Source: Psammoneis japonica (lineage: Eukaryota). Taken from it: a stretch of 64,000 nt of DNA. The translations under genes were made by a program, and so were the position numbers. Shown piece after piece: positions 4,011 to 64,000 of this stretch. Each line of letters begins with the position of its first letter. Position 1 is the stretch's first letter. The DNA lies in assembly GCA_008632985.1 (NCBI GenBank), contig QPGO01000199.1, positions 1 through 64,000 of the forward strand. The letters run 5' to 3'. The notes under the pieces were generated by a model. That model saw only the letters and a list, made by a program, of their open reading frames with translations, made no database searches and was not told the origin of the DNA.

Positions 4011-4401
4011 GACGCGTTCCAGCCCCAGGTGGGACTCCGTGTGACATTGGGCCCGTAGAATTCTACGTGCGAGCTCCGTAGTACGAGAATTTAATTAATG
4101 GACACATTTATCTTCAACATCAAATAAACGGCCAAGTTTGTGGCGCAATTATGCCTCTTACCACTCGACGTTTTTGCAAATGCACCTGCCCTACGCGATT
4201 CTTAAGACATTATAGAATCGCGCTGTAACAAAAAATGTCAAAAGTTGTTGGACGGATCGCTCAATAAGTGCACCGTAAAATGACACAAAATATCAAAAAA
4301 AATCACGTAGAAATCTACGTGCGCGACATACGACGTGATTCAAAAAACCATCGATGTCACAGTTCAGTGGCACGAGGTCCCACCTAGACCTGGAACGCGT
4401 C
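4011..4401. mobile_element. MITE, GAC-terminus family, copy 3 (TpA-intact)
   Basis: TIRs as above; TSD GGCA; the empty site is visible in a homologous sequence at about 25775-25810 (reverse strand). Confidence 0.92.
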
Positions 4402-31111: not shown

Positions 31112-31518
31112 GACGTGCTCCAGCTCCAGGTGGGACCTCGTGCTGCTGAGCTGCGACACACTTGTTTTTCATCATCCGTCGCATGTTTCGCGTGCACATT
31201 TCTGCGTGTTCCATCATAAAAAATTGTTCCACACTGCCTGTTTTGCGAAGCCAAAGGCTTTCTGTTGTCTGCACTTGTGTCAACAAAAATGCGCTGGGTG
31301 TGCTCTTCAATGTCTGAAGAATGTGCCCGGGCATGCTGCAGAGAATGTGCTTCAAGTGTGGAGGAGGAGATGCGTTCGCAAAATTGCCTCAAAATTGCCT
31401 CTTTTTCTGTTGGCGATCATTCATACATTCGCTGCTCAACAATTTTGCTGCGGAGCTCGCACGCAGAATTCCACGGGCCCAATGTCACAAAAAGTCCCAC
31501 CTGGGGCTGGAACCCGTC
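31112..31518. mobile_element. MITE, GAC-terminus family, divergent copy 4 (TpA-depleted)
   Basis: TIRs GACGTGCTCCAGCTCCAGGTGGGAC / GTCCCACCTGGGGCTGGAACCCGTC; TSD GAAT; right end matches copy 2. Confidence 0.85.
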
Positions 31519-43200: not shown

Positions 43201-45281
43201 TTCGTATGCAATTCATCACACATTACGTGGCCATCCAGACGCTTCCCTGGCTTCCTTGAATCGGTTTCATCGTTTTTCCATGCATACACTTCAGGGGCAT
43301 AGCCGTCACTGTACATCATGGCCGCTTTCGTCTTTTTCAGCTTGGACTCGGATGGCATAATCTGAAGGGACGTCTCTTGGAACTCTTTGTACGCAGTAGG
43401 AGAAGTGAGCCAGAGAGATAGAGCCATTCGGATAACACCCGCCGAATACTCAAGAGCCGTGTGTTTGCCGGCCATTTTCTTGCCGTGCTTTTCGATTTCG
43501 TCTGATATGAGGGCAGCGATTCTCTCACGTTCATCGTCATCCATTTTCGACCCACCTTGATCTTCCGTCTCAAGCTCGAGTAAGACTGAAACTATCTTTT
43601 TCCGAAATGCTGCCTTGTTTTCCTTGCAGGCAGCAAAAGCTTTCTCCAGGACGGACTTCATTTGCTCGTCGCTGTCCTGTACCTCGATCTTGTCGTTCAG
43701 CTTTTTTAATTTGGCTTCTAACCGCTTGAATCTGATTTGTTGCTTCTTCTTCTCTTTTTGTACATTGCGGAGACGTTCGTCTTTTTCTTCGGGGCTCAAG
43801 AAGCGAAGATTCGTTTTGGAGTTGCTAACGGTTTGCTGCTTACGGTTGCTTTCCTTTCGCTTGATTCGACGTGCTTCATTTCGTAAAATGTTCTTGCAAG
43901 AATGGCATTCGTTTGTTTCGGGACTGGGTTCTACCGCGAGGTAAAGGCCATTGCAGTCGGGTGATCGCTGCTCACTGCATTGATGGAGGAGCAATCCTTT
44001 CTCAAGCTCAATCGGGAAGCAATCGCTTTCGTGCAGGTCCAACAAACGAACGAGTTGGTTTACTTCCCGTGAGTTCAGAAAATTCGATACGTTCTTGTCG
44101 GACGAGTTCCAAGAGAATCCGAGTTTGAAAGATATTTGATCAATCGGCGGTAGCATCTCTTGTACGGAATGCTCTTCAATGAAGAGAAATGGGAACCTGT
44201 CCTTTCGAATATTTTGGTCGCAATAGAAGCACTTATCACACTGTCGAGTCGTGCTCTTTGGAGACGCCACACCTGTGCAGTCAATGCTTCGCCATGTTTT
44301 ACTCTTTCGATAGTAGTCAAAGAATTCAAGGCACTTTCCTCGAATATGAGGTGAGACCGTACATCTTTCAAGTCTTCTGTTTCGCATGCCGACGCAGCTC
44401 GAGTCGAGACTGTCGTGCGATCGTTGCTCACTCTCGCTTGGTGTGATCTGGACAGGATTGGGCTCTGGACTTTTGTTTTCTTTGTTGGTCTCCCCCATCG
44501 ACAGTTCCAAGAGCGGTTTTGTGGTTGTATCAAGTGACGTTCGTATTGATGGAGTTGCGCAGGTCGTCTCGATAGGATTTGGAGAAAGAAGAGTCGGGCC
44601 TTGTTCAAGTCGACGCGAGTCTGTTGAAGTTCCTTTCTCGGCATCCTGCATTTCGACAGTTGTGAGGGAAGTTGACGTTGATGGAATGTCTGTATTGCCG
44701 GCTGTGATAGAAGCATTCGACAAAAGCGCGCGTTCGATGGCAATTGTCCGTTCTGTGGACGACTCTTGCGGCTCTTGTGGCGTTTGTTCCGGCGAGGATA
44801 GACTGTCAATAAAAGCTGAAACGACTTCGTGTTTGCAGCAAGGGGCTTGTACGAAAAGTGTTTTGTTACTGTCAATGGCGTCGCGGCTGTTATTCATACC
44901 GAACGAGTTTGCTTCTTCGAAAGAAAGCGGCGAAACCCATTGTGGCTTGACGTTGCAGGAGTCACGGAACTCCCAGAATTCTCTCGGCCAGTGATGAGGG
45001 GCAATGCATAAAATTTTTGTGCTTCTCTCGGGCTTCAAGTAATGGACAATGCTTTCGACGAGACGCTTGCATCGTGTGTTTTGCGTCACGCGTATCCTTG
45101 CCAGCGGGCGACCCCAAAGTGGATCATTAGCGTGAATCAGCGCTTGTCGAAGCACATGACAATTTGGGGAACTACAGCAGCATACATCATGACTCATCGT
45201 TGCAACAATCAATCGGTCATTGGGTTGATTGTCATCGGCGGCAGATTTTCCTTTTGAATTTCCATTTCGTCTGTCTTCCAT
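40251..45281 (-). CDS. P-element/THAP9-like transposase, 1676 aa, uninterrupted
   Basis: N-terminal THAP-like C..C...LC...H; RNase H-like core motifs VMCDE, LVCDAGGNN, HNLKAVRN, NQSSIEAWFS..R matching P transposase D/D/HxxKxxRN/E motifs. Confidence 0.88.
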   Translation of the reverse strand: MEDRRNGNSKGKSAADDNQPNDRLIVATMSHDVCCCSSPNCHVLRQALIHANDPLWGRPLARIRVTQNTRCKRLVESIVHYLKPERSTKILCIAPHHWPREFWEFRDSCNVKPQWVSPLSFEEANSFGMNNSRDAIDSNKTLFVQAPCCKHEVVSAFIDSLSSPEQTPQEPQESSTERTIAIERALLSNASITAGNTDIPSTSTSLTTVEMQDAEKGTSTDSRRLEQGPTLLSPNPIETTCATPSIRTSLDTTTKPLLELSMGETNKENKSPEPNPVQITPSESEQRSHDSLDSSCVGMRNRRLERCTVSPHIRGKCLEFFDYYRKSKTWRSIDCTGVASPKSTTRQCDKCFYCDQNIRKDRFPFLFIEEHSVQEMLPPIDQISFKLGFSWNSSDKNVSNFLNSREVNQLVRLLDLHESDCFPIELEKGLLLHQCSEQRSPDCNGLYLAVEPSPETNECHSCKNILRNEARRIKRKESNRKQQTVSNSKTNLRFLSPEEKDERLRNVQKEKKKQQIRFKRLEAKLKKLNDKIEVQDSDEQMKSVLEKAFAACKENKAAFRKKIVSVLLELETEDQGGSKMDDDERERIAALISDEIEKHGKKMAGKHTALEYSAGVIRMALSLWLTSPTAYKEFQETSLQIMPSESKLKKTKAAMMYSDGYAPEVYAWKNDETDSRKPGKRLDGHVMCDELHTKHGISWSSTTHHMAGFTSESKSLNVKEELRNMLVEDDKEYSPQDAQDKEPAVSVNQWRFRSFYNETHNAEYFFVNSLSGDDLVRQFTHVVLLYEMVGIHIHGLVCDAGGNNARMYKLLRQGRAVPDQAWLTDEFVSIIHPVDPLRKIWLWHCSTHNLKAVRNALEKSRPPKVRPASKTKKSKRKRVSKKLMDKATNGRRRSLKKRGQEAGNDDSTAETAKATPIEADSATEQVIIAATGSDAVAKKVAGVSVGEVEVEGSNDNGTNHDDDGICKKKGGQETVSAPRQFEMDGTKFGWPQVENTYKRDMRRSLQQTDLRKSSTYPNKWNMMGVSDAKAPFTYDTITEQMTYLGSELGCVSDLMTEGNTGKDIGNVQLMQDRLKILKEKVSELDSKAPEPIRQTLCCLEYAVNVSCIYNETFMKKMRNLTKDNIDECELKTREALDYFEKWKKKQLELKAQKDPLWEKKFLSSETYLNMRVGVVGFFGYARYVLNMENGPAYVPFLHSNQSSIEAWFSLVRSKNRDTAVGYRAAVSCMDKSRGKQALANNKCYSADDVEETPEEEKGANQMERVFLRRDKKRDEWLTKLKSPQSVQGDVDISCFSDTSDPDMEFLGTAGSLAVSKLREQCLSKHFAPTLLEFGDFSKIAWASMFTQSQGFFEKLFQLNASEHESFDRACKTITDKLLSYLEMSIITSASVYNSFYLQIWRCLQSGTIDEASKLAPEGMRERLPWCLIGMTIGEMFVGWVLSAMDKVHHELVKKAGGASTRKRKSTGIEVSVDDANSEVNRIFGWAIKDVLQKTIHLNNDELSEEVSDKTQAKIDFLKRMRILHHEALKDENYMANCYATSDKIRNRGGLTLVAPIVFHFGKRLLGCIRLGCNEGTMKSKGKECVKEAYESIMGHKDLEKAFLKCFESDNSITTDDKLKVYKQLISKTAHARFGAVTDKYKEDNTGHYAKGSSDVAFQQNLRAQVKKSSVEVTSNF

Positions 45282-45365
45282 CCACCATCACATTTCGTGC
45301 CGTCTGTTATCCCCCCTCCATCACGTTTCGTGCCGTCTGTTTTCCCCCCTCCATCACGTTTCGTC
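45282..45365. repeat. ~33-bp tandem repeat just upstream of the transposase ATG
   Basis: CCATCACGTTTCGTGCCGTCTGTT(A/T)TCCCCCT-like unit, about 2.5 copies. Confidence 0.8.
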
Positions 45366-45736: not shown

Positions 45737-46009
45737 TATATATGATATTTGTGAATGGTTATTTATAAATGATAAGTTCGTCCCGTCAGAAGCCCTACGT
45801 AGACTGCCGTAAAATGCAGTACAAATTTTAACGGTGTTCGTACCACGCATGGCAACAGGCTCGCACGTAGATTTGTGCCGGAGCTTGTACATCCTGATAG
45901 ACTTATAAATCCTTGACCGGACCCATCTACTTCTATCGGAGATCGGAGCGATGCACCATGATGAGCGACGGAAGTTCGTTGCCCCCGTCGCCCCGTTGCT
46001 GCTAAAACA

Positions 46010-47175
46010 ATGTCGTCTACGACGGGTGAGAAGATCTTGCATTGCGTGGTGGAGAATGAGCAGCTGCTGATGCTGGTGATGGTCACAGAGCAGCATCAAA
46101 ACGAGCACGAACCGCTGCCACTGCTCTCCGTCTATCTGCCCTGTGCGAGCACTGTCAGGGAGCTGAAAATGATCATTCAGGAGCAAGCTGGCACAGAAGC
46201 AAAGGACCAGCGTTTGTGTGTTGCTGGAAATGCGATCTTTCATGGTGCCACTGCGGAAGCGCGCCAAGATGTGTTCCAAGTGGGGTTGCGCAGGGTGCCG
46301 CTCGACACACGTCTCGAAGCCCTTTGCGACATGACTGGATGTCATGGAGACGTTCACGAGCGCGATGAAATCATGGCCAAAATGACCACTCCACGAGATG
46401 CGCAAAATTGTCCTGGAGGTCACCAATTGACGGCTCTCTTTGACGATGATGTGGAAAGCACAGAGGAAGTGCAAGAGGAGTGCAAGCGGCATGTCTGTGT
46501 CAAATGCCGCACACCCGGAAACCCCAATGTGAGAATCACGTTGGATGACGGTTTGGTGAGGTTTCTGCCTCTTGTTTGTCGGGAGTGCAACTTTTCTCTC
46601 TGTGGGTCTTGTCGCCGTGATGATGTCGGAAGAGGCGAGATCGACGATCCGCATGAGAGCCTCCAGGATTTGGCCACCGGCGTCGGTCGTAATGTGGCAG
46701 GTTGTGCTTGCTGGTTTGGAGGCCGTGGTCACACGAATGGCCACCAGGTCATTGGGTGCAGGTCAGAACATGCGAACAAGTGACTTCGAAGGGACGATGA
46801 ACATGGAAAATCAACAGAGATCAGCAGGTTCTTCAACGAGGCGTCCGTGTCCAAGTCCATTTTGATGAAGATGCGAGGAGCATTCTGACTGCCGCAGGAA
46901 AGGAGGACTCACCAATGAAGCTTGAAATTGACACCATTCTGGAAGATGGAGCAACCACGATGGATGTGGCTAAACTTCGGGGGATTCTACATGGGGAAGA
47001 CCTTTGGTCTGTTGTCACAAATGAATTGAAAGATAGGTTCCCGATGTGCACAGATCCGCATGCCTGTGAAACAATGAAAGTTGTGTCCTTTGAGGCCGGA
47101 GAAGTCGTTCTCGAGATCAGCTTCAAAGTTTCTGATGCCGCAGACTGCTGGAGGTGTCCAGTTTTACACGTGTGA
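46010..47175 (+). pseudogene. Ubiquitin-like domain + Cys-rich zinc-finger protein, frameshifted and increasingly TpA-mutated
   Basis: STVRELKMIIQEQAGTEAKDQRLCVAG (Ubl pattern); CPGGHQL...CVKC...CRECNFSLCGSC. Confidence 0.5.
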
Positions 47176-49056
47176 TGCACCAAAGAGAGCACATTCAGCA
47201 GTTGGCTGTCGACATGTTTGGGCCTAACTCACAAAGTACAGTGCGATGCAGTCACTACACAATGAGCTTGTCAACTTTCTACTCGTGCGGCGCTGATTGT
47301 CTGAAACTGGCGAAAACGCCGAATTTCATGCGGCTGATCGGAGGACAGACCAGAGGCAAATTTTGGACGGTTTTTCGGGACAGCAACCAGGACAAGCCAT
47401 GCAGCCAGAAGAAGAGGGATGGGAGGGGAAAACAGCATGTGAACAACAGGGGTCAGACAGGCAGTAAAACGAACAGGGGAGAGACACATTGTTGAAGCAC
47501 ACAGACAATCAAAATCTGGCTCTGCCTGCCTGGCAGACGACTTTTCAGATTGCTTGCTTCATGCGCGCACTCACAGGAGCATCTGGCCCATCTGGCGACC
47601 TCGAGCACGGCAACTTAGTGTGACTTGCATGTTGTCATCATCCAGGCCAGAACAAGACCCTTTGCTTCAAGGTGGGACTTGGCTGTTTTGTCAGCTTTTG
47701 AAGAGCGTGTGAAGCCAATTGCGAGAGGCAGGATTTGCTCACACCATGCAAAAACAATGGCATGAGATTTGAGCTGTCCAGTTTGCAAGGTGATTGATCT
47801 CAAGTCATCGCATGTGTGCTTTCTTGACTGCATGTGTGGATCAAGCAGATGGAGAGTGACAGCATCAGGCAGAGCTGTCAAACCTCTCTGTGAGGCTGTT
47901 GTTGAGGCTGCAGGTGCTGGAAAAAGCACCATGATGAGTGCATTGGTGGTGTGCTGCTGTTCAACGAGAGATGTTTCAACCAAATGGTGGTGTGTTCATG
48001 GGTGGGCCAACTGGGTCATCAGCTGCATTTGAGGCTTTGGGGAGACATTGCGCTGGGGCTGTTTTCCACACCTGTCTGCAACTCAAGCTCAGCCAAAATG
48101 CTGCCATTGTTTGGAACCACCTCTGCTTTGCTGTGACCTCCTGAAATGGAAGGACAATTGCAGGGGGGGTGGGTCGAGCAAAGTTTGGCTTTGCTGGCTT
48201 CCATGGGCTGTGCTTCCCACAATTTTTGGCAAACTGCATGTGATGGGAGTTGTTGTGGTGAGAACCCATGCAGGAATGAGATCCAAGCACTTGGGCAGAT
48301 GTTTTGGGTGTTGCGCGAATCACCAAACCATTTTGGCAGAACGCACATGCACGCAATGGAGGGACACACAGAGCTCAAGTCATTGCACAGAGTCAGCCAC
48401 ACTTGGCACCAAACAGATCCTGTGAGGACCCTTCACACAATGCACATCAAGAATTGTGTGGCAGCCAGACATGGCACAGATCAAATGTGTGGAACTCCTG
48501 CAGCCAACCACAGGCTCAGCATGCTGGAAGTCATGTTTTCATCACAACTGCACTTTTGCACAATCAGCTGTCAGCTGTGGACAGCTTCAGATGCACAAAG
48601 GTGGCAGGACACATGCTGCTGCAGGGATGCCTGTGGCAGCAGAGACAAAGCTTTCTTTCTGCAATGCGCCAATCTCCAGATGTTGGTTGGAGTTGACTTG
48701 TCAGAGTTGCTGCCTGTTTCTTGTGGTGTGTTTGGCACTCCTCTGGGTCCTTCTGCCAACACCAAGCATTTCTTGAGAGCAGAGTTGTTGAGCATGCAGG
48801 TGTTCCTTCAATGCAGGCCAGTGATGTCATGACCATTCTGTCAAAGAAGAAGCATCAGACTGAGGGGCAAAAGAAGAACATCAAAGGCTGCTTGATGACA
48901 AGAGGGTTGGCTCTTTGATGACAGCAAATGCTGAGACAAGCTGTTGGATGAGTTGCATCTTGTCAGAGGTGTGCACAGCAACAACAACAGGGAGCTTGTT
49001 TTGGGTGTGATGCGTTGTTTCTTTCTGTCAGCAGGAAACCCATCAATGAGTGCAAT

Positions 49057-49332
49057 TGACAGAAATTGAAGGCAAATGGCAAGAATTCAAACAACAACTC
49101 CTTGCTGCTGTCTAAACAGCAGATGAGTCTCCGCTCAGAGACCGTCACAGGAGCCAAAAGACGTGCAAGTCGGTGTGATCGGGCTGCTGTTGTCATTCTT
49201 GTGAGCCTTGTGGCTCAAAAGCAAAGTGCATCGCGCGTGAACGCGCGGAGCTGAAGCACACAAAACTGTGCGCGGCAAACTAAACAGCACGCGACACTTC
49301 GCGCGCACCCAAATCCTGTTCAAATCCTGTCA
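49057..49332 (-). repeat. 3' LTR of the Copia element
   Basis: Direct repeat of 55793-56068. Confidence 0.95.
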
Positions 49333-52300
49333 CTCCCCAGTTTGCTTGAGGAGCCACAGAAACAGATTCGACTTCGGATGAAATGAAGTTCCAGAACATG
49401 AGGGGGTGGAGAAGGTCCCAAATTTGGGAGCAACCCCAATGCTTGCTGAGAATGTCAGCAGGGTTGCGGGAGCCTTCGATGAAGTGGAACTCAAGGCAAC
49501 CAGAGGCAATTGCCTCACGCACACGGTGGAACGACAGTGCGGTGTGTCGCTTGTGTAACTTGGAGTGCGGGATGGTGGCACTGTCTGCAACCAACTTGTT
49601 GTCACCGAACATGCAACTGACATTACGGATCGGGACGCCAAGGCAGCGCAGGGTGATGCGCAGGTCGACAATCTGCTCAACACAAGTCCTTGCGGCAACA
49701 AATTCAGACCCGCAGGTCGCAGTCTCCACGGTGGCTTGTTTCTTAGAGAACCAATCAGCCGGGAATTTGTTGAGGAAGTGGAGCATTCCCATGACAGAGC
49801 GTCCGGTGAGCATGCAATGGTGCAAGTTTGCATCGACGTAGTGGGTGGCAGTGATGAACTTGCCAAGGGGCGGTGGAGCGTCCTTCGGGATCATCTCTTC
49901 TGCTTCACCACACACGGAATGCATCCATTCACAGGCCGGAGCAGGGAGATCCGAACAGTCGGGCTCTTCCGTGCGAACGCGGAGAGCACCGTGTCGCATC
50001 TTGGAGAGGTGCCCACAGACGCGTTTGGCACGATCCAAGTGGCCTTGACGGGGCGCAGCTCGGAAGCTAGAGAGTGACATGACGGCCGTGGTGATGTCAA
50101 TTCGACCAAGGGACACTGCCCATTGGAGCAAACCAACAAGAGACTGGAACTTGTGAATGCCATCGGGTCCCAGCAGTTTGGAAGTGTCCAGTTCGGGGTG
50201 GTCACCCTTCTCTAGAGGTGACAGGGTGTTGGCGGTGGGTTTCTCCCCAAACAGTCGGGCGCAGCTGTCGACCATGCGCTCGATGTACTTGCGCGGAGAC
50301 AGGCACAAGGTTCCGTCGGGGTCCCGGGAAAAGTCGCAACCCAGATGGAACTCAATGGGTCCCGCACCCTTGAGCTTGAACTTGTGCTTTTCCGTGAGAG
50401 TGTCGACGAAAGATTGAGGGTCCTTCATGGCAATGGCGAGGTCATCCACATGAACGGCAATGCATTCACAGTGGTCGCCGTTCCTGTGCATCCAAATGTC
50501 GGGTTCGGCGCTGCAGGGGAAGAAGCCTTCAGCTCGCAGGCAGTCGGCGAAGCGTTCGTGCCAGCGGAGACCGGAGCTGCACAGTCCATGCAGTGCCTTG
50601 TGGATGACAAGGATGTGTCCTTCGAGTTTGCCAAATTCGGGTCCAGCTGCAATGCAAAGCTTCTCCTTGGTGGTGGCTTCAAGGTGGGCATTGCCAATGT
50701 CGGTGGCCCATGTCTCCAACTCGTTGAGTTCGGCCAGGAAAATCATCAGCCGAAGGCCACAGAGGGAGACTGCTCCGGAGCAGACACTGTCGACAGGTGC
50801 GTCCGTGAGGTGCCCGTCGGCTACGAGTCGTGCCTTGTGGCGACCGTCGTGTTTCACGTCGTGCACTGGGTGCACTCGGATCTTCTTGTGTCCCGCAGGA
50901 GGAGTGGAAGACTTGAAGGGCCCGCAGTCATGGAAGACTTCGCATTCGTCGAGTTGGTCCATCTCGAGATTAGTTGCGTCTCCCCACTTGCGGTTGCTGT
51001 TGCGTTCGTCTGGTGACATGGCGTGTTTGTGGTTCCAGGGAACTTCGCATCCGCACTTGCAGCGAGGTGCAGTGCGGAAGGAGCGAAGCTTGGCTTGGTT
51101 GGCCATGCGAAATAGCTTCTTTTGGCGCCTCGCGATGGTGCGGAACCGCTTCCAGCCATCCGTGTCGAGGAGTCTGTTCTCTCGTGCATAGATGGCACAG
51201 GTGACGGGGTCGTCCTTGGCGATGATGGCAAGAGGCTCGGACGTGATCTCCCCACTTTCCCATTCAAGCATGATGTTGTAGCTTGAGCCTTTCCAGGTTG
51301 GGTCGTGAGGCTTCAGAGGTCCTTCGTGTGACACGATGCGTCGAAATTTCCAAACAGTGGTGTCTTCGTCTTCTTGCTCAATGTGATTCATGATGTCATT
51401 GCAGGCAAGGACTTCCTCGCATTCGTCATTGTTGACAGAGCAGACGAACTTGGTGAGCTCGGGATTGCCGTTCACTTTCCATTCGTGGTCTTCGACGGCC
51501 TTGACGATGCGAGCTCTGTGGCGTTGTCCGTCCTCTTGTGGCTGCATGAGGAAGGCACGTCCAATGATGTCTTGCGGATCGAAAGCTGGCATCTTGGGTG
51601 TCCTGATCTCCCCATCAGGAGAATCGACGGGGTTGTCGTCATGGCGAGATTTGATGATGGGTTCAGGTGGCTCCCCATCAGGAGGATCAAGACGCAGGTT
51701 TCGAACGGCAGGATCGGGGGCAGCGGAGCAGACGTTGGACCGGCAGAGGATCTTCTGAGTGTCATCAGATAGAATCTTGAAGGTCATCTGGTGGCCGACG
51801 TGCTCAGCAATGCCAACGAAGCGTCCATGCAACTCATGGGATTCGGACGGCCAATCGGAGTTATCGAGGTGGAAGCACACGGGTTCCCACCAGTGAAAGC
51901 GAAGCAATGGGCTGATGTCCGGGGTGGAGCCAGTGAGAGTCTCGAGGGGCGTGCGCCAGTGGAGACGTGGGGACGCTGTGTGGTTGAGTGTGAAGCACAC
52001 GCACATGAGCGCCAGCAGCCATGTGTGGGCGGGCGAACCAAAACGATCCATGACAGTGTTCGCCATGCGCTTCACGGTCTGGTGTCGACGCTCGGCAAAG
52101 TTTTGGTGTTGCTGGTGAGGCTCACTTTGCCAGCTGGAGATGAAGAGGGCGCGCAGGATCCCGAGCACTTTGTTGCTGATCTCAACCTGAGCACGGTCGC
52201 CAATGAGTTTGGACGGGGCACCACGTTCACGGATCTGATCCTCGAGTGTGTTGACAAACTCCTTGTCCGTCTCAGTGCCGCAGACGTCAGTGATGGTAGA

Positions 52301-54951
52301 CTCGGTGCCAACAAACAGTTGGGCGCTGGTGCAACCAGAGTCGACAGCCGGGGTGTCGGCACAAACGGTGTCAGTGGCGACAGGCTCGTTGCGGCGGTGC
52401 ACATCAAGGGCGGGGTTGGGTGATTTGCAGGCCTTGCGAAGGTGTGCACCGGCGGGCATGCGGGCGTGCTGCGTGGTGCAGGCAGGAAGCCAAAGCAAGG
52501 CCGAAGAGACTCGAAGGGGGGGTCCTTGGGCTGCACAGTGCGCTCCGGAGGTGGAACGTCATCGCCCTTGGGGTCAATCGCATGCAGATGACACTCGTAG
52601 AACACGTCGTCGTTCGGAATGAGGTGATCATCGAGGGCGGACGCGTGATCGGCAGACAAGGAAGCGGACATGATGGTCTCGTTGACAACGACACGATGAC
52701 GGCAGTTGCCGTGTTCGTCAAATGGGTTGGCAGTGGGATCGTCCTGCAGGTCAGAGATCGCGTCGCACCACTGGTCGTCGTCAGTGACAGAGTGATCGAG
52801 GACGGAAGGGTCCCATGTGTCATCACTGGTGAGGATGACATGGGGCAGGGTGTCCCATTCGGTGTCAGTGTGAGGTCGCATGGCAACATGAGGCAGGCCA
52901 GCCTTGATGTCAATGGGGGTGACATGGCCATCAGGAGCGGCAACACGTTGCAAGCCGTTGGGCACCTTGACAGAGCGATCGTTGACATCCTGTTTGCACC
53001 ATTCGAGCTGGCCGCAGGAATGGATGGTCTTGCCCTTGCCCGTGTGTGCGCACTGATGGAGGATGGCAATGACGGGACCACGCTGGGTCTCAATGACGGC
53101 ACCAGCGGTGACAATGGGGATGTCCACCAATTGATGATCGGCAATGCCCTGAACGTCGACTTGGCGAGAGGTGCGTGCAATGACGCGAACGTCGTTGCCA
53201 GCAATGCCGCCGTTGGCCCCACGATCAACTGGAGCGCCAGTGCGTGTGGAGCGATGAGCAGAGGCAGAGCAAATGACATTGTGGTTGTTGACGCGGCGGC
53301 AAGTGCGGCCGTTGAGTTCCATGTCATCTGCAGAAGCTGGCGGGGTAGAGGAAGTGGCGGATGGCCCCGGTCGACTGGCACTGGGGGCTTGGTTAGGAGA
53401 CAACAGACGTCGCAGATCACCGGGTGGCAGTGGCTTGCGCTTGGTGAGGTGCGCCAGGATGGGATCATCCGAAGTGGCGTCCACATGTGGAGCAGAGTCA
53501 CCAGAGTCAGCAGGAGTCGTGTTGGACAAGTGGACATCACCGTCACTCCCAAGGCGTTGGTCGTGAAGGTTGGCCGTAACAGACTCATGGTGGTCACTGG
53601 CTCGCGGGTTGCAGGGAGGCGGACGAGAATGTGCAAGGATGATCGCCTTGGAGGAATCGGGCAACGAATCCCAGAGCCATTGGTGGTCGGGAGGGAGACG
53701 TCTCCATTGGTCACCGGTGAGGCTGGGACCGCGGGTGCAGGCAGCATTGGCCTGAAGGACGTCAATGTCGCTGTCAATGTCGTAGAACACATCGTCGGAC
53801 GGTTCCTCGGAGCAGACGTCGTGTGCGCATGTGGCGCGTTGGGGAGCTCGAGGTGTCGTCTTGGGTTGAAACGCACTGCTGCACTGAGCTGCCGCGGAGA
53901 GGAGCAAGCCACAGTGTTGATTGCATGTGAGGCTCTTGCCACTCTGCGTGCGATGCTGATCAGCTTGGTTCTTGACAGCACAGAGTTCCTCGACAGGGTG
54001 CACGGCATTCTCGAGCATGACGCGCTTCTGTCCTTCAGAGAAGTGGTCACTGGCCGGGATGAGTGCCTCGCACTTGCGCAACTGATCTTGCCAATGAAGG
54101 ATGAACCCATGGGTCGGACCTTTCCAAGTGCCATCACCAAGACGTGCGGTGGTGAGGTGTGTGAGCAGGGTGGAGGACTCGATGGATGCGCGGGTGGAGG
54201 CAAGCGCGTGCTCAGACAAGGCGCGGCAGACGGTCTGTGCGTCAGAAGACCCCACATTTTCGCGAATGAGAGCCTTGCCCTTGTCGGTGAGAAGGATGCG
54301 TTCGAAGACGGCGAACATGTGCTTTTGCTGTTTAGCAAAGAGCAGTTTGTCTTCGGGGCTGGTTGGTTTGTACGACGAGTCTAGAATGCACTCGACGTCT
54401 TGGGCGCGGACTTGTGCCACAAGTGAGGTGTGCCAAGTGTGCCACTGCTTGTCGGATTTGAGAGCCGTGAAAGCGGTGGGATCGCGCTTGATGCCTCGCT
54501 TGAAGTCCCGCACCGGGTCGCGTGCCTTGGTCGGGTTGGTGACATGCGGGGGTGCAAGGGGTGAGCTGCCGATGGACACAGAAGACATGCAGTCGGGGCT
54601 GAGGCGGCAGGCAAGGAACTCGTCATGCGTGAACAAAGAGGAGTCGTTGGCAACGTCAAGACCTTTGTGTGCTTTGACAATGTGCAGACTGACCAGTGCT
54701 GCCAACATGTTCTTATAACCACGGGGCAAAGGGATCACATTAGTGCCGTTGTCGTGCTCAAGCGAGTCGATTTGGGACGGCATGAACGTGAACAGTTCCT
54801 GATGCGAGTCCGTGCCGTCTTGGGCCAAAGCCAAACGAAGAGGACTCCCAGCACCTTGGGCAAGCACGGTTCCAACAACGTGCTCGAAACCATCGGTTTG
54901 TTGCTGACGAGTGAGAACCATGGTGGACAAAAGTGGTGTCAGGACAATCAA
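49280..54951 (-). pseudogene. Copia gag-pol polyprotein (frameshift/deletion near 52490; RT YVDD changed to HVDD)
   Basis: DRGANGG protease; VATDTV / SEPHQQHQNFAERR integrase; HKARLVADGH and HVDDLAI RT; YVDANL, ETATCGSEFVAAR, NPADILSK RNase H. Confidence 0.93.
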
Positions 54952-55792
54952 TGCTGGTTGGGAAGCGAAGGCAGACTCGAAACTTGGGTGAGAATGGACT
55001 TGACTTGAAGTGGACTTGACTTGAAATCTTGAGCTGTCTTAAAATCAGAAGTCGCCGGGCTTTGCTGTCCCGTTCGTTGTTGGGTGCTAAACTTCCCATC
55101 CGGTCCGCAGAGTTGTGCCGGCACGTCCGAACCCGCAGCTGGCGGCGCTTTGGGTTGCTTGCGAGCGGAGCAGCGGTTGGATTTCCCGATCAGGCTGGCC
55201 AGTTGACGCAGGCGTCAGGCACTGTGGACGAACGAACAAATGCGGGAAAGCACCCTCGCCCCAACGCAGGCTGCAATCACGGCTGCTTGCTCTCACAGTC
55301 GTCCTCGTGGACCTAGCAGAACTGCAGAGCACCAGCAGTCCGGGGTGGATCAGGTGCAATGGACTCGGTGTGCTTGCAGAGTGGTGGCAAAACCGCAGTC
55401 CGAAGAGTGGGTAAAGGTTCTTGGCCGTGAAGACATGCATGTGCACACACATGTCTTCAGCGACTAAGATCCTTGAACATGTGGGGTTCTTGACCGTTAA
55501 CCGAGGAACAGGTGTGTCAAGGGATGTTGATCAAGGACAGACTTGGATGTGACCGTTGAACACATGTCTTCAGCGATCAAAGGCAGCATGATCAATCCAG
55601 ACATCCAGCGGCAAGGAGACTTGACGGTGACGTTAACTTCCTGCCGATGCCCTGGTGTTGAATGCGCGTAGACTTGCCGATGTATGTAGAACATGTGCGG
55701 AGGTCCACGCAGGATTGAAGTGGCGTCGTTGGTAAATCAACGACGACGATGGCGGTTGCTCAATGGGTTGACAATGACCAAGACTGTTGGTC

Positions 55793-56068
55793 TGACAGAA
55801 ATTGAAGGCAAATGGCAAGAATTCAAACAATGACTCCTTGCTGCTGTCTAAACAGCAGATGAGTCTCCGCTCAGAGACCGTCACAGGAGCCGAAAGACGT
55901 GCAAGTCGGTACAATCGGGCTACTGCCATTATTCTTGTGAGCCTTGTGGCTCGAAAGCAAACTACATCGCGCGTGAACGCGCGGAACTAAAGCACACAAA
56001 ACTGTGCGCGGTAAACTAAACAGCGCGCGATGCTTCGCGCGCACCCAAATCCTGTTCAAATCCTGTCA
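55793..56068 (-). repeat. 5' LTR of the Copia element
   Basis: Direct repeat of 49057-49332. Confidence 0.95.
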
Positions 56069-59059
56069 GCAATCACTTGTGTTTGTCAAGGGTTTGTTTG
56101 GAGGATGATCCTTTTGTGATTGCAAAGTCATCAACAAGAGGCAAAATGAGGTTGGAGTTTCTAATCACTTTGACACTGGTTGTCTCATTGAGGCTTGTGG
56201 CTCATGCTTGCACCGGGGCAAAAGTTTCTTCTTTGCAGGGTTGTGACTTCAAGAACCCTTCATGGGGGCTGTTTCATGGTTTGATGGGAGCCAGTGAGGA
56301 GATTGTTTTTGCACCATGAGACAACCCAAATGAAGGACACTGGTCATTGCATGTTGTTGTCAACTTCAACAGCTGTTGTGGGCCACAGCATGAGATTCAT
56401 CTTGTCCAAAGGCATGTGTTTGGGTGTGCTTGGCCAGGTGTCATGACAGCATGCTCATCTCCACATGGAGTGCTTGTCTTTGACCAAGTGGCGTGCTCCT
56501 GCGGTTCTTTGCATTGCACATCCTTGCAGCAGGCCCTGATGCTGTGAGAAAATCCCTTGTCCATTGAGGCTGTCATTTGCTTGCTGGACAGAGGGTGCAT
56601 TTCAAGGACAAACGGCTGGGCAGGTTGAACCTGGGAAGCCACCTGATGATGTCCTTTGTGTCATTTTGGATGCTGGCTCTTGTTTTTTTTAGGTGTGCCA
56701 CAAGCTTGGGATTTTCTGTGTTGTGCTTGGAAGGAGAATGTTGATCAGAGAGCTGCTGGGGTTGAGGATGGCAAGCACATGGGCTCTGCCATGTTCTTCC
56801 TTGACTTTGGGCTCAGACTGGTGGCGCAGACTGCTTTGTCAGCTGCAGGGGATGGTTGGCTTGCCAGACAAACTGCACAGTGCCATTGACGTGACAAATG
56901 GATTGAACACCTCAAAGCTCATCCTTGTCCAGCAGGGCCAACAGTTGAAGATGTTGAGTTTCTGCATTGGTGGACCATGACAACAAGAATCTTGCCATTG
57001 TGCGCTGGCACATGATGGACTGAGAAGCTGACAAAGGCGTTTGCACCAGACACACCTTGGCTGACATTTTTTGTGGTGCTTTGAATGGCAAGAAGCTTGT
57101 GTGCCCACAATGTGTCAAGTGCTTGCAGCACTGCCTTTGCAACAAACTGGCAATTTGGCCCTTTTTGACAAGCTCCACATCATGTGGAGCTCTCATTTTC
57201 ATGTTGCTTCCACATGGAAGCTCGCCAGACCATGCAGGCCGCCAGTGGCTGTTTTGAAATGGTTGTCCGGCCCCTTTTTGTAAAGACTGTTCAGAGAAAA
57301 CATGTTTTTGATGATGTTCTTCAATGTCTGGAATCAGGGTGTTCTCATGGCAGCTGTGTGGATGTTGGCATTGAATGTGTGCATGTCCACATGAGCCTGT
57401 CCACCACCAAAAAAATGTTTGTGCTCTGAAGAAACATTTTGTCTCAACTGTGATTGGAGCTTGGCAGATCAGACAAATGCCGCCAGTTTTCCTCAAATTT
57501 GAACAAATTTCAACGCTTGTTTGAGGGCACCTGTGCCCCAGCTTTGGAAAGATGTGCCTTGATGGCCAACAAATGATGCAGCCTTTGGCGCGGCATGCAC
57601 ACCTGAAATGACAGAGGGCCCACAGGGCACAGAGTGTGCAAAGTTGACATTCAACCATGGCAAAGTTGACACACCTGCTTTTCTTTTTTTGTGTGAACCC
57701 ATGTGCCACAATGGCAATGCAGAGCCAACACACAAAGCATCTTTGTGGTCTGGGGACTCCATTGCATGGCATGCATGGTTGCAAAATGGACAAAAATGCC
57801 TTGAAAATTGAGTCGAACATTGTGCCCACATTCCAAACTGCTCCACACTCTGTGTTTCAAACTGCTGACCACCATGAACAGACACAGTGCCCAGCATGAT
57901 GAACAAGCTCATGCCAACAAACTGCAAGAGCATGGCTGCATCAATCATGGTCAAGAGGTGTCCAACATTCCCAATGCCTTCCTCATGTTGCAAGCCATGG
58001 GCAAGTGCAAAAACAAGGGGAGGTGCTGAAAGCAGCGCAGCTGCAGTGCATGGCAGACTGCTGCAGTGACACCCTGACAATGGTTTTGCTTGAACAGCCA
58101 GTGGGCGGTGCACTCATTTTGTGAAGTCTCTTCCTCTGATGCAGTGAAATCTGAGAGCAGCAATGACAAGCAATGCTCGCTGCACAATGATTGTGTGTGA
58201 CACCTCATTGTCATTGCCCACACATGCTTGAAGAGGACAAGGATGAACTCTGGGAACAACCCACTCAGCTGGCCAAGCAGCACACCACCCAAGTGAGTTT
58301 GTTTCATGCAACAGAGTGGTGATTGCCAAAGAAGACAAAGCACAAGTGCAGCTGATCCTGCCATGCGCTGATCTGGAACATTTTTTGCCATTCTTTCTTT
58401 GAGAGGAGAGTGCCAAGACAAGCAAAACCAAAAGACAACATTTGCAACAGACATGCAGTGTTTTGCAGACCACAATGTCATTGTGAAGTGTGCTGTGCAC
58501 ATGACAACATGATGCTTGCTTTGCAGTTCAATTGTGTCAACAAGCTTTTGACTGATGAAAGATTTGCAGTTTCGCCAAGTGGGCACAAACAAAAACTCTG
58601 GGCAACCATGCTGCTGCATGACAACACAAACAAGGGATCACATGAAGAAAACAAATGCCATGCATGAACAGACTGTGTGCTCTGCAATGACAGAGAGACA
58701 ATCCAATGACATGCGGTCATGATCCATTTTCACATGAGATTTCTCCCTGTTCTTGGGCTTGGAGTTTGGAAAGCAATTCAACCTTCTTTTCCAAGTTCTG
58801 ACATTTGTTTTTCACATCCACACCAGAGCCAACTAAGAGCAATGTTGTGAACCAGGAGATTGCTCTTGATCTGACTCCAGCTTCATTTGCCATGTTTCTT
58901 CAAGGCATGATGCAATGCCTGAGTCTCCTCATCAGCCCATTGAAAGCAGCACTCCCCCCCCCCCCACACACACACACACACATGCACACCACACACACCT
59001 CCTGGACCAGTTGGTTGCATCCCACCCACCACCTTGCCCTCTCCTCACAAGCAGGAGTT

Positions 59060-60700
59060 TAGACCTTGGAATGTTCTGGAGCAGTGCTGAGCTTCACACC
59101 CTCCTCCAATTCTTCCTCCTCCTCCAATGTGCAGCTGAGCCCCAGTGCTCATGCAGTTGGCTTTGGGGTCATGGCTGTGTGTTGCTCATCAATGGGGCTG
59201 GGCCAGCTGGGTGACCAGGAAGGAAATTGCACAGACAGAGTGGGAGTGGCAGACAACTCCTCTCTGACAGATGCTGGTTTGTGGGACAACAGAAGGGTGT
59301 GAGCAGGGAGGGGCTGGGGCTGGGCAGCAAGGTGCTGCAAAAACTCACAACAATTGCAATGGGCTTCTGTGGCATCTGGGAAGGGGGAGTGCCACACAGT
59401 GTGGGAACTGGGGTGTCGGGATCAAAGCTGCAGCAGACATTGGAGACAAGGAGATGGGGCAAAGAGGAGATGGCACAGCAGATGTGGTGGAGGGTGCTCT
59501 TGGTCTGAGATGGACAAACGGTCATGATCAGTGTGGAGCAAGGAAGCTTTTTGTGCAAGGCAAGTGCAGACAAAGTCAGCGCTGCCCTGACAGGCTGGCC
59601 AAGGAAGTGGAGGCCAGCTGCAACTTCTGGTGAAAGCAGAGGGTTGGCAGCGGGGTTGAGGAAGGCAAGTGCCTTGTGCAAGGCATCTGTGCTGTCAGGC
59701 AGGGGACAGTCTTGGAGTGGGCTAGAACCAGAGATGGAGGTTGGGATGCACATCTTCAAGCAATTGAGTTTTGTGCCATGCTGTGGGCCAATCTGGGTGA
59801 GCTGCAGAAAGAACCATGGCAGCTTGGCATGCAGCAGCCAGACACTGGCATCATTTGATGATGGGAAAACAGCAGAAGTTGTTTGAGGAAAGCAACCTGG
59901 CTTCCAGCTGCAGCAAGACACTCCATTTGTCAGAGTTGTCACAATGCCAACATGTGTTGGGAGAGGCACAGCAGAGGTCAAGTGAAGAGAGGCACCAGAG
60001 AGTGCGGGGTTCTGCACAACAAGCGGGGTTGGCGTTTGGCATCAAGAGCCTCTCTGTGGCATTCAATGTTGGTGTGGGTGGTGCGGATGAGGCAGCCAAG
60101 GCCACCTTTGATGCCGGCCCTGAATTGGCCATCTGGGAGGAGGCAGTGGGTGAGGGCAGGAGCCTTCAGAGTGAGAGAGCCTGTGACACATTGGATGTCA
60201 GTGTTGCCACAGCCAATGGGCCATGGCTTCTTGAGGTTTGTTTGGTCTTTGTGTGGTGTGACATGGATGGAGCAACTGCTGGCTGGCAGAGGGGTGGGCA
60301 GATTTCATCAGAGGGGCCAAACTGGCTTGGGCCAGGAGAGTGAACTGCTTCTTGAGTGTTTTGAAGCATGTGGGCCTCATTTGAGTCTTGGGGGGTGCAA
60401 AGACTTTAAAGAAGGTGCAGGCCTTGAGTGGGTTGACGGAGTTGACACCAAGGATTGGCAGCAGTGCCCAGCTTCTTGCAGCAGCACTTGCAGCCAAGAG
60501 CTGCCAGGAGCTGCTTGTGTCCATCTGTTGCCTCAGAGGTGGGGGGGCTGGAGGAGGGGTGGGGTGGGGTGGCAGGCATTGTGTGTGGTGGTTTTTGAAG
60601 TGCAGGCAATTCAGGGTGGGCACAGCAATTGTGTGATGGGACTGTGGTGTGAATGGGGCATCATGGCATGGCTGTGATGTGGGCATCAACAAGCAAAGAG
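59060..60700 (-). mobile_element. Decayed non-LTR retrotransposon (CRE-like RT) fragment
   Basis: GLHFLGQPV...QTKSTL...LPHLL segment; partly homologous to 62850-63950; limits approximate. Confidence 0.6.
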
Positions 60701-60739
60701 CAAACTGACAGAAAGATGTTCACTGCAATTTCCCATGAT

Positions 60740-62830
60740 GCACGCAGATGAATGAATGTGGCATCACACATGCCACTGCAGGGGTGCCTGCTGCAACGGA
60801 GATGAAGCTTTCTGTTGTGTGTCAATCCTGATGTTGGCCAGAGTTGACTGTCAACTGTCACCTGTTTCTCATGATGTGTTTGGTGCTCCTCTTGGCCCTT
60901 CTGCCAACACAAAGCATTTCTTGAGAGCAGAGTTGTTGGGCATGCTGGTGTTTCTTCAACACGGGCCGATGATGTCATCGCCGTTCTGTCAAAGAAGAAG
61001 AGTCAGGCTGAGGGGCAGGAAGAACATCAAAGGTTTCTTGATGCTGCCAGGGCCAGCTCTCAGATGACAGCCAATGCCAGGACAAGCTGTTGGATGAGTG
61101 ATGCATCTTGGCAGAGGCAAGCTCGCTGATGAAGATGGGGAGCTTGTTGTTGAGCACAAATGCACCATTTTGCTCTGTCAGCAGGGAACCTGTTGATGAG
61201 TGCAATCACTTGTGTTTGTCAAGGATTTTGTTTGGAGGATGATCCTGTTGTGATTGCAAAGTCTCATCAATGAGGGGCAAAAATGAGGTTGGAGTTTCTG
61301 GCCACTTTGATGCCAGTTGTCTCATTGTGGCTCATGCTTGCTCTGGGGCAAAGGTTTCCTTTTGCAGGGCTCTGCAACTCCAACCCTGCATGGGCTTTTT
61401 TTGTGGACAACCCAATTAAACAAGGAGATCAGCCACCACATGTTGTTGTCAACTTTGGCAGCTGCTGTGGACTGGCATGGGACAATTCATGTTGTCTGAA
61501 GGTGGCACATGTTTTGATGTGCTTGGCTGGGTGTCATGACAGAGCACATGCTCATCTAAATGGAGTGCTTGTCTTTCTCCAAGTGTGCTCCTGTTTCTTG
61601 CATTGCACATCTTTGCAGCTGCCTTTGCTGCAAGCAAACCTCTTGTCCACTGAGGCAGCCACTTGCTTGGACAGCAAATGCATTTTGAGAACAAACGGCT
61701 GGGCAGACTGAGCCTGGGAAGCCACCTCCTGATGACATTTTTTGGACCCTGGTTCTTGTGCTTTTAAGGTGTGCAACAAGCCTGGGATTTTCTGTGATGT
61801 GTTTGGAAAGGAAAAGTCAACTGGAAAACTGGGGGAGGATGGCAGGTGCATGGGTTCTGTGGCATTCTTCTGCAAGTTTGGGCTTGGGTTGGTGGGCACT
61901 GCTTTGTCAGCACCATGAGTTGCCAGTGCGCAAGGCAGGGATGGCTGACTTGCCAGACAAAATGCACAGCACCATCATTTGATGTGACAAGTGGGTTGAA
62001 CACCTCAAAACTCATGCTTTTCCACCAGGGCTGACAGATGAAAATGCTGACTTTCTGTTTCAGTGGGCCAAGACAACAAAAATCTTGCTGTTGTGTGGGG
62101 TGCATGGGTTGAGAAGCTGACAAAGGCATTTGTGCCAGATGGGCCTCATTGGCTGGCATTTTTTGTGGTGTTTTCTGTGTGGCCAGAAGTTTGTGTGTCC
62201 ACAGTGTGCAAAGTGCTTGTGGCACTGCCTTTGCAATGAACTCTTCTCATCAGACCACACAGGCCAATGGCTGTTGCAAAGTGGTTGTCTGTCCCCCTTT
62301 CACAAAGTCTGTTGAGAAAACAGATGCTTTTGGTGCTCTTCAACTGGGGTGCTCTCATCACTGTTGCATGGATGACATTGGCATTGAATGTGCCCATGTC
62401 CACACAAGCCTGTTCACCACCAAAAAACATGTGCTCTGAAAAAACATGTTGTCTCAACTGTGATCAGAATTTCAAACTGCTGACTGTGACAAACCGACAT
62501 TGTGCTCTGTGCTCCAATTCAAACTGCTGACTGTGACAAACAGACACAGTGCCAAGCATGACAACAACAAACCACAAACTTTGTTGGCAGTCTTGCAAAC
62601 AAACTGCAAGAGTGTGGCTGCATGAGTGGCCATGATTGGGAGGAGCTCAATGTTTCTGAGGGTCTCATGTTGCAAGCTGTGGTTGATGAATGCAAAAATG
62701 AGGAGAAATGCTGAAAGAGATGCTGCTGCAGTGCGTGACAGACTGCTGCCATGACACCTTGACAATGGCTTGAAGAGCCAAAATGTGGTGCATTTCACAA
62801 AGAAGTCTCTTCCTCTGATGCAGAGAGGAA
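60740..62830 (+). repeat. Diverged duplicate of 48580-49056 + 56069-58150 lacking the Copia insertion
   Basis: Colinear blocks such as CTTCTGCCAACAC.AAGCATTTCTTGAGAGCAGAGTTGTTG; empty site GAGTGCAATCACTTGTG at about 61198-61214. Confidence 0.85.
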
Positions 62831-62849
62831 TCTGAGAGAGCAATGATGA

Positions 62850-63950
62850 CAAGTGGTGCTTGTCACAGGACTGGAACCAGAGATGGAGGCAAGAATGCAC
62901 ATCTTTGAGCAGCTGAGTTTTGTGCCATGCTGTTGGGCAACATCTGGGTGAGTTGCTCAAGGAACCACATGGCAGCTTGGTGGGTGGCAACCAGATGCCA
63001 GTGGCACAGTCTAATGACAGGGGAGCCACAGAAGTTGAGAGTTGGATGGAGGGAGATGCAAGCACAGCTTGGTGCTCAGCTGCTTGAGGATGATGCTCAG
63101 AGCTCAGGCAGAAAATGGCGGGCCTGGCAGGCAGCATTGGATGAAGCCCTCCAGCTGCAGAAAGGCGCGCCATTTGCTGGGGTCATTGCGAGACACCAGC
63201 ATGTTTTGGGATGGGCAGCCACAGCAGAGGTCAAGTGAAGAAGAGAGAGGGGGAGAGTGTGGTGCAAAAGACAGGGTTGGCATCAAAAACCTCCCTGCAA
63301 ATCTCACAAGAGCACTCATTAAAAACGTTGATGAGGTCAAGGGTGAAAAAGGAGTGTGTTGGAATTTCTTCATCCAAGCAGCAGCAGCAGCCAAGGCAGT
63401 TGAGGCCACCTTTGGTGGCTGCCATCCCTGAGAATTGTCTGTCTCTGGGAGGAGGGAGCAGAGGCAAGGGCAGGAGCCTTGGCAGTCATGGCAAAAGTGC
63501 CTTGACACACTGGGTGGCCATGGGGCGCAACTTGTTGGGGTTTGTTTGGTCTCTGTGTGGCGCCAGCACCAGATGGACAAAGCAGCTGGCTGGCATGAGC
63601 AGGCTGATCTCATCAGGGGGGCCGCCAAGCTGGCTTGAGCCAGGAGAATGAGCTGATTGAGTGTTGCAAAGCAGGGCCTTGTTTTGGATTTGAGGGTGGT
63701 GCAGAGACTTTCAAGAGGGGGCACAGGCCTGGAGTGCATGTCAGCAGCAGAGTCGACGCAACAGTGTGCCTGGCTTGCACACTTGCTGAGAGCTGCCAGG
63801 AGAAGAGCTGCTCATCTGGCATTTGAAGGGTGGGCAATTCGGGGAGGGCACAGGGATTGTGTGATGGGATGCGAACGGGGCATCATGGCATGGCTTGGGG
63901 GCATCGACAAGCAAAGAGCGGACAGACAGGCAGACGTTCACTTCTAAAAA
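62850..63950 (-). mobile_element. Decayed non-LTR retrotransposon (CRE-like RT) fragment, second copy
   Basis: LDLINVFNECS.EICRE and W..FLQ.EGF.Q.C..GP.FS resemble RT motifs LD..NxFN and QG.PL; limits approximate. Confidence 0.65.
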
Positions 63951-64000
63951 GCGAGGGACGACATGGAAACCGCAAACGCACACACCCAAAAAATTTGGCG

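What the first reader, a model, noticed from the sequence alone, without database searches (positions are those of the whole stretch)
49057..56068. LTR pair shows the TpA mutations arose in genomic DNA after insertion
LTRs are identical at integration. By-eye alignment of the 276-bp LTRs: 6 sites where the 5' LTR keeps TA and the 3' LTR has TG or CA (e.g. CGGTAAAC/CGGCAAAC, GCTACTG/GCTGCTG); 4 sites with CA in one and TG in the other (independent hits on an ancestral TA or CG); 3 CG/CA sites; about 3 other changes. Hits on both strands argue against RNA editing or reverse-transcriptase error, which would be strand-biased and copied into both LTRs. LTR-based age estimates would be inflated.
Basis: partly seen in the sequence, partly recalled or inferred. 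Interest (0 to 1): 0.82.

Follow-up and report, generated by a model that had tools for sequence, protein, structure and literature searches.

The report
LTR pair records TpA hypermutation
The two once-identical ends of a jumping gene have drifted apart mainly because this genome rewrites the DNA step T-A to T-G or C-A, one site at a time, after such elements land in the chromosome, an unusual kind of targeted mutation otherwise reported in one preprint on an unrelated alga.

Summary
Observation confirmed exactly. A minus-strand Ty1/copia element (TSD GCAAT on both sides) has LTRs differing at 20 of 276 nt: 6 TA-vs-TG/CA sites, 4 CA-vs-TG sites, 3 CG/CA, 3 others. Among 110 other LTR copies these sites read TA, TG or CA, almost never CG (2 of 1650), so TA is ancestral. 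In 41 TSD-verified pairs, 424 of 555 differences sit on 16 TA sites; doubly hit sites agree only as often as independent hits predict (130 vs 128.9). Hits are about 150-fold above background, prefer TAY, show no strand coordination and grow with age: gradual mutation of chromosomal DNA. The promoter end is often spared (22 of 64 5' LTRs vs 2 of 64 3' LTRs nearly untouched), whatever the flank. LTR divergence is inflated about tenfold. Enzyme unknown; DNA adenine deamination in silenced chromatin is my best guess. Closest: TpA hypermutation of integrated viruses in Bigelowiella natans (2026 preprint). This scan already found the process many times on other DNA of this genome, including LTR pairs, TAY and promoter sparing.

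The parts
49052..49056 (.). target-site duplication, left copy (GCAAT)
49057..49332 (-). 3' LTR, 276 nt, TG...CA ends; 14 of 16 family TA sites lost, 3 of 20 CG sites lost
49333..49345 (-). short purine-rich tract next to the 3' LTR (PPT by position; inference); a 24-nt pattern over this junction occurs 403 times in the genome
49280..52558 (-). pol part, 1092 aa stop to stop; RVT_2 reverse transcriptase at about 50264-50899; 13 of 16 conserved tyrosines read Cys/His
52072..55038 (-). upstream (gag-side) frame, 988 aa, no Pfam hit; overlaps the pol part in another frame, so this copy is broken there
55039..55792 (-). 5' leader; TA-rich in the family, spared in many copies, about 76-88% erased in this one
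55793..56068 (-). 5' LTR, 276 nt; 8 of 16 family TA sites lost, 0 of 20 CG sites lost
56069..56073 (.). target-site duplication, right copy (GCAAT)
46000..64000 (.). TpA-erased domain that holds the element (TA o/e 0-0.13 per kb, 0.32 at the 5' end of the element); older flanks have also lost CG (o/e 0.04-0.29 in 56-64 kb)

Best explanation
Shown: after a copy integrates, A:T pairs in TpA steps of its chromosomal DNA are changed to G:C (TA>TG when the sense-strand A is hit, TA>CA when the other is), independently site by site, on both strands, about 150 times faster than other sites, twice as fast at TAY as at TAR, first in the body and 3' LTR and later at the promoter end. A slower CG>TG/CA decay runs over the same ground. 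Tyrosine codons are destroyed, which should kill the copy. Inferred: the target is marked by silent, CG-methylated chromatin rather than by sequence homology, since two identical LTRs 6.7 kb apart are treated differently and CG loss follows the same map. Inferred, weakest step: the chemistry is deamination of adenine to hypoxanthine in DNA by a TadA/ADAT2-like host enzyme, fixed at replication, a few hits per generation over many generations.
For: Three-state sites: TA 769, TG 426, CA 449, CG 2, other 4 of 1650; TG 3666, TA 3665, CA 2579, CG 17 at 240 sites in 42 full-length copies. 424 of 555 and 291 of 446 pair differences at TA sites. Independence of the two LTRs, 130 vs 128.9 of 230. A>G per opportunity TAT 0.22, TAC 0.20, TAA 0.14, TAG 0.08, other A 0.002-0.008; hazard TAY 1.15 vs TAR 0.56, P=1e-11. 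No strand coordination in 7 distance bins, z -1.5 to 2.0. TA loss 18-87% per copy, rho 0.78 with CG loss and 0.53 with background transitions. 3' LTR more hit than 5' in 16, less in 6, equal in 4 of 26 pairs picked by a TA-free pattern, P=0.003; sparing independent of flank (rho -0.04); CG loss lower in spared ends (14 of 683 vs 338 of 7638). TadA-derived editors prefer YAY/TA/TAT (PMC11983105, passage). ADAT2-like and TadA-like genes and 27 C5-methyltransferase matches exist.
Against: No enzyme is tied to the process: the deaminases read look like housekeeping genes, and endonuclease V, which acts on inosine, is present. Sequence cannot tell whether A or its partner T is the damaged base (TAY on one strand is RTA on the other). 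No methylation, chromatin or RNA data. No processive clusters, which a deaminase on exposed single strands often leaves. 5' sparing is confounded with age and subfamily: spared copies are younger (background 0.0080 vs 0.0096, P=0.005) and lack variants shared by 11-13 of the other copies. The mild sense-strand excess is weak (58 vs 35 of 97 sites, P=0.04).
Confidence: 0.6

Rival explanations
1. Same timing and target, other chemistry: error-prone repair or replication in methylated DNA puts G opposite T (Y-family polymerase, or repair of T:G mismatches misfiring at TpA), so TA loss is a by-product of CG methylation.
For: TA loss tracks CG loss across copies (rho 0.78) and along the element; hits are scattered, not clustered; many C5-methyltransferases.
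Against: A in AA, CA or GA mutates 20-100 times less than A in TA, unlike the broad WA spectrum I recall for polymerase eta (recalled, not from a call). TA loss is about tenfold greater than CG loss and hit status shows little local correlation (residual 0.02-0.06 below 300 nt), so it does not look like repair patches.
Confidence: 0.22
2. A modified base laid at TpA in silent DNA (methylated A or oxidised T) decays passively; the mutation is a side effect of an epigenetic mark, as CpG decay is.
For: Strict dinucleotide symmetry and domain-limited action resemble CpG decay; gradual accumulation.
Against: No such mark is shown; the Tet/JBP search found nothing but its control rang nowhere, so it is uninformative. 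A rate near saturation in copies with under 1% background divergence is very high for passive decay.
Confidence: 0.13
3. Editing before integration: of the RNA, by reverse-transcriptase error, or of the linear cDNA.
For: An LTR pair cannot by itself exclude editing of finished cDNA; no identical pair among 64 (minimum 2 differences) fits early action.
Against: RNA or RT changes would be shared by both LTRs and one-stranded: no excess sharing, both strands hit. One burst on cDNA should segregate to one strand per lineage: none seen. Load rises with age; one TSD pair differs by TA/CA; non-LTR DNA of the window is erased too.
Confidence: 0.04
4. Direction reversed (RIP-like CA/TG>TA in the 5' LTR), or LTRs of two elements joined by recombination.
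For: Fungal RIP makes TA from CA/TG (PMC12543289, passages); 7 of 47 pairings had mismatched TSDs, so recombinant or nested copies exist in the family.
Against: TG and CA coexist with TA and without CG at the same sites; outside relatives keep Tyr; this copy's TSD is perfect.
Confidence: 0.01

Closest known systems
TpA hypermutation of integrated NCLDV and virophage DNA in Bigelowiella natans (Mettrop et al., bioRxiv 10.64898/2026.01.13.699255; read parts 1-3 of 5, abstract to conclusion; methods and supplements not seen)
   Same: A:T>G:C transitions confined to TpA, both strands, limited to regions of foreign DNA, far above background; ADAT2 proposed there too.
   Different: There measured in mutation-accumulation lines on single-copy viral inserts with mild depletion (rho TpA 0.45); here a high-copy retrotransposon driven to near-total loss (o/e about 0.1), with a 3' pyrimidine preference, promoter-end sparing and coupled CG decay. 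The preprint's text has no 'LTR', 'retrotransposon', 'diatom', 'flanking' or 'trinucleotide', though it notes TE-type Pfams among TpA-poor genes.
Repeat-induced point mutation (RIP) of ascomycetes (PMC12543289, passages)
   Same: Repeat DNA mutated by dinucleotide-specific transitions after insertion; LTR pairs diverge fast.
   Different: Opposite direction (RIP: C>T at CpA, making TA; here TA is destroyed). RIP reads homology in premeiotic cells and needs Rid1; here identical LTRs are treated unequally.
TadA-derived adenine base editors and ADAT2/3 (PMC11983105, passage)
   Same: A>G in DNA with 5' T and 3' pyrimidine preference.
   Different: Engineered or tRNA-directed; no natural enzyme is linked to this signature.
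CoDi Ty1/copia elements of diatoms (PMC2806351, passages)
   Same: Copia-type RT, TG/CA LTR ends, TSD; LTR pairs 94-100% alike there.
   Different: Lineage placement not tested; 118 of 120 outside relatives (52-73% identity, unnamed) show no Tyr>Cys/His at 16 conserved sites.

Membership tests
Ty1/copia LTR retrotransposon | two direct LTRs with TG...CA ends and a short TSD | tested here: met
Ty1/copia LTR retrotransposon | RVT_2-type reverse transcriptase | tested here: met
   PF07727, E 1.3e-21
Ty1/copia LTR retrotransposon | integrase upstream of RT | tested here: inconclusive
   no Pfam integrase hit in either frame
CoDi lineages of diatoms | RT groups with CoDiI/CoDiII; host is a diatom | not tested
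   no named reference sequences; 'diatom' comes from earlier notes of the scan
B. natans-type TpA hypermutation | A:T>G:C transitions almost only at TpA | tested here: met
   424 of 450 polarised A>G changes at TA
B. natans-type TpA hypermutation | both strands (TpG and CpA products) | tested here: met
   426 TG, 449 CA in LTRs
B. natans-type TpA hypermutation | confined to regions of foreign DNA, genes spared | tested here: met
   TA o/e per kb 0-0.39 in repeat blocks, mostly 0.4-0.87 in gene blocks, sharp borders; one window only
B. natans-type TpA hypermutation | rate about 1000-fold per generation, active in some lines only | not testable with these tools
   relative rate about 155-fold per base, saturating, so a lower bound
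B. natans-type TpA hypermutation | acts on single-copy integrated viruses | not tested
   only repeats examined
Fungal RIP | C>T at CpA/TpG, creating TpA | tested here: not met
Fungal RIP | targets chosen by sequence homology | tested here: inconclusive
   identical LTRs hit unequally argues against homology alone
Fungal RIP | premeiotic, Rid1-dependent | not testable with these tools
   -
APOBEC/ADAR-type editing of retroelement intermediates | one-strand bias, clustered, copied to both LTRs (features recalled) | tested here: not met

The most novel reading that the evidence does not exclude
This organism has a natural genomic adenine base editor: a host deaminase, guided by silent chromatin, that steadily rewrites TAY in resident transposons until tyrosine codons and TA-rich promoters are gone, a mirror-image RIP shared with a chlorarachniophyte and so possibly old and widespread among protists. 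Promoters are spared while still open, so 5'/3' LTR asymmetry records when each copy was silenced.
Probability: 0.4. Interest if true: 0.9.

Novelty: new variant of a known kind. Interest (0 to 1): 0.72.

Why it matters
It extends TpA hypermutation from integrated viruses in one rhizarian to a 400-copy retrotransposon family in another lineage, and fixes properties that any mechanism must explain: chromosomal, cumulative, two-stranded, TAY-biased, promoter-sparing, tied to CG decay. The TAY fingerprint gives an assay for finding the enzyme, which would be a natural DNA adenine deaminase. Practically, LTR dating with one substitution rate, as done for diatoms with the P. tricornutum rate (bioRxiv 10.1101/2025.10.24.684338, passages), would overstate ages here 5- to 10-fold: 33 of 64 pairs have no difference outside TA/CG sites yet average 11.8 differences.

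Tried and rejected
Polymerase-eta-like WA spectrum: rejected, non-TA adenines are 20-100 times colder. Strand-coordinated bursts: not found (the 2-10 nt bin at z=2.0 is one of seven). Inheritance of TA losses from a mutated parent in the LTRs: no excess sharing. Protection of the 5' LTR by a neighbouring gene: rejected for 5' LTRs (18 of 22 spared ones have TA-empty flanks), weakly present for 3' LTRs (rho -0.37, P=0.003; flanks of only about 155 nt for most of the second sample). Ascertainment bias: real in the first sample (24:2 with the 5' query, 4:6 with the 3' query), hence the second sample. Tet/JBP search uninformative. No RNA holder listed. UV TA photoproduct considered and dropped because I recall it giving mostly transversions (recalled). 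Literature searches for a diatom report: searches found none; one search found the B. natans preprint; subscription journals are mostly not held.

Full report
The element. 49057-56068 is a 7012-nt Ty1/copia-type retrotransposon on the minus strand: 276-nt LTRs with TG...CA ends, TSD GCAAT on both sides, RVT_2 hit at E 1.3e-21, coding region split into two overlapping frames of 988 and 1092 aa. The right LTR is the 5' one. The genome (91.4 Mb, 597 contigs) holds 403 exact matches to the 3' LTR junction. I did not test the host; earlier notes of the scan call it a diatom. The window alternates between blocks almost empty of TA (1-18 kb, 31-33 kb, 46-64 kb) and gene blocks with ordinary TA, with borders sharp to about 200 nt.

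The observation. 14 of the 20 fall on 32 nt of family TA sites (P=1e-10).

Direction. From the 40 scored of about 950 candidates in each of two searches I fetched 60 stretches and counted states per column in 110 other LTR copies. At 15 TA columns: TA 769, TG 426, CA 449, CG 2, other 4 of 1650; a sixteenth site reads TG 51, CA 43, TA 15. TG and CA are two steps apart and joined only through TA or CG; CG is absent, so TA is the source. An outside check agrees: of 305 residues conserved in at least 85% of 120 relatives from other sources, the window copy reads Cys or His at 13 of 16 tyrosines and differs at 19 of 289 others; 118 of the 120 relatives have no such change.

After reverse transcription. 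One search gave 47 pairings, 40 with a 5/5 TSD; 41 TSD-verified pairs including the window were used, the rest dropped for mismatched TSD or no partner. 424 of 555 differences lie on TA sites, 73 on CG sites, 45 are other transitions, 13 transversions. Where both LTRs have lost a TA (230 cells) they agree 130 times against 128.9 expected for independent hits (partner shuffle P=0.21). Nothing detectable was inherited from a mutated template.

After integration. Edited cDNA would also pass that test, so I looked further. In 42 full-length copies (of 64 pairs; length 6850-7330) 240 TA sites read TG 3666, TA 3665, CA 2579, CG 17 (55 cells are masked N, which inflates two copies' background there; skips N). 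TG and CA are mixed at random within a copy at every distance (z -1.5 to 2.0) and the TG share is not overdispersed; a single unrepaired burst would leave one strand's changes per lineage. This argument fails if repair fixes both strands in one molecule. Loss per copy runs from 18% to 87% (window 81%) and rises with CG loss (rho 0.78) and background transitions (rho 0.53). One element has TSDs differing by TA/CA (1 case). Contigs of run X1 carry 2 other letters in 4654 nt of the neighbouring gene but 48 in about 1800 nt of the TA-poor flank, at half depth; of 23 events among the 30 shown positions there (40 of 186 rows were shown), 7 are TG/CA swaps, 5 TA vs TG/CA, 5 CG/CA, 6 other. This fits independent hits on two alleles, but X1 may be the assembly's own sample and the contigs may be paralogues.

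Specificity. A>G per opportunity: TAT 0.22, TAC 0.20, TAA 0.14, TAG 0.08, all other A 0.002-0.008; in the body, hazard TAY 1.15 (177 strand-sites) vs TAR 0.56 (125), P=1e-11. Per base the rate is about 155 times background. The 5' base matters little. A slight sense-strand excess (mean TG share 0.55 at 97 symmetric sites, P=0.04) is weak.

Position. The first sample was biased by its queries, so I took the first 46 of the 100 listed junction matches in contig order: 36 stretches fetched (one covers two entries), 6 already held, 3 not fetched; 23 new and 3 held TSD-verified pairs remained, 13 stretches dropped for partial LTRs or no partner. 291 of 446 differences are at TA sites; the 3' LTR has lost more in 16, fewer in 6, equal in 4 (P=0.003); 8 of 26 5' LTRs and 0 of 26 3' LTRs lost 4 or fewer of 16. 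Over all 64 pairs it is 22 vs 2. In spared copies loss is 6-12% over the first 550 nt and reaches body level by about 1.1-1.4 kb. It does not depend on the flank (rho -0.04); 3' LTRs next to TA-normal DNA are hit a little less (rho -0.37). CG loss is also lower at the 5' end (14 of 683 vs 338 of 7638 in spared copies; 53 of 907 vs 1000 of 10148 in the others). Against over-reading: spared copies are younger and of a different subfamily, so sparing may be a lag. Since both LTRs have the same homologues, something other than homology, most simply chromatin state, sets the rate.

Dating. Pooled divergence is 957 of 17643 (5.4%) against 69 of 12787 (0.54%) outside TA and CG columns; for this pair 20 of 276 against 3 of 200 (K2P 0.078 vs 0.015).

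Mechanism. I favour adenine deamination in DNA: the strict 5' T and 3' pyrimidine match TadA-derived editors (PMC11983105, passage), and the B. natans authors propose ADAT2. The genome has ADAT2-like, TadA-like, AID/APOBEC-like and two A_deamin loci (the ADAT2 and TadA labels rest on recalled motifs, Pfam gives only the shared fold). The ADAT2-like gene has the asparagine the preprint highlights, which I recall as usual for ADAT2. None is tied to the process, and sequence cannot say whether A or T is the damaged base.

Comparison. Same signature as B. natans (bioRxiv 10.64898/2026.01.13.699255, parts 1-3 of 5 read; its supplements may hold flanking-base or TE data I could not see). Not RIP (direction reversed; PMC12543289 passages). 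Searches found no other report. The scan has noted the process, LTR-pair evidence, TAY and promoter sparing on other DNA of this genome; these are unchecked notes and not counted as support. What I tested here at family scale: independence of LTRs, lack of strand coordination, age dependence, bias-controlled and flank-independent 5' sparing, and the size of the dating error.

Verdict. Real; interpretation supported. Post-insertion TpA mutation about 0.95; deaminase guided by silent chromatin about 0.6; new variant of a known kind; interest 0.72.

Noticed in passing
window 16878-18629: Tandem LRR gene (144-nt and 72-nt repeats, Pfam LRR_14, E 5e-38) lies across a domain border; TA is absent in its repeats before about 17.3 kb and returns by 18.3 kb.
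   Followed up: no
window 30800-33400: Small TA-empty island (0-1 TA per 200 nt) inside gene-like DNA, with borders sharp to 200 nt; holds part of a repeat related to 501-877, 2731-3091 and 4011-4401.
   Followed up: partly
window 48000-49056 and 56069-64000: Older duplicated DNA around the element has lost both TA and CG (CG o/e down to 0.04); the element landed inside it (48713-48953 matches 60861-61099).
   Followed up: no
window 40251-45287: 1678-aa frame with a TNP-like RNase H N-terminal hit (E 1.6e-7) that keeps TA (o/e about 0.4-0.6) and is bridged by GT..AG joints in run X2: a transposase-derived gene that is spared.
   Followed up: no
L159 (G000:C79:87300-89500), 19-1491 minus: One open frame joins a cytidine-deaminase-fold domain to a 2OG-Fe(II) dioxygenase (DIOX_N, 2OG-FeII_Oxy).
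   Followed up: no
L163 (G000:C2:247032-247994), minus: 320-aa AID/APOBEC-like deaminase (SNAD4, NAD1, APOBEC_N over cut-off; HAE and PCxxC motifs).
   Followed up: partly
element family, 42 copies: The family is TA-rich only in its first 1.1 kb (78 sites) and TA-poor in the body (about 145 sites in 5.7 kb; 68 of 146 coding sites begin a codon, mostly Tyr), suggesting long coexistence with the process; site calling may miss fully erased sites.
   Followed up: partly
L088, L118, L124, L136, L155: Copies often insert into or beside other copies of the family and nearly always into DNA already empty of TA (53 of 64 3' flanks with o/e under 0.25).
   Followed up: no
window 49056: An X1 contig (48256-49056) ends exactly at the insertion point, a weak hint that the site also exists without the element.
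   Followed up: no
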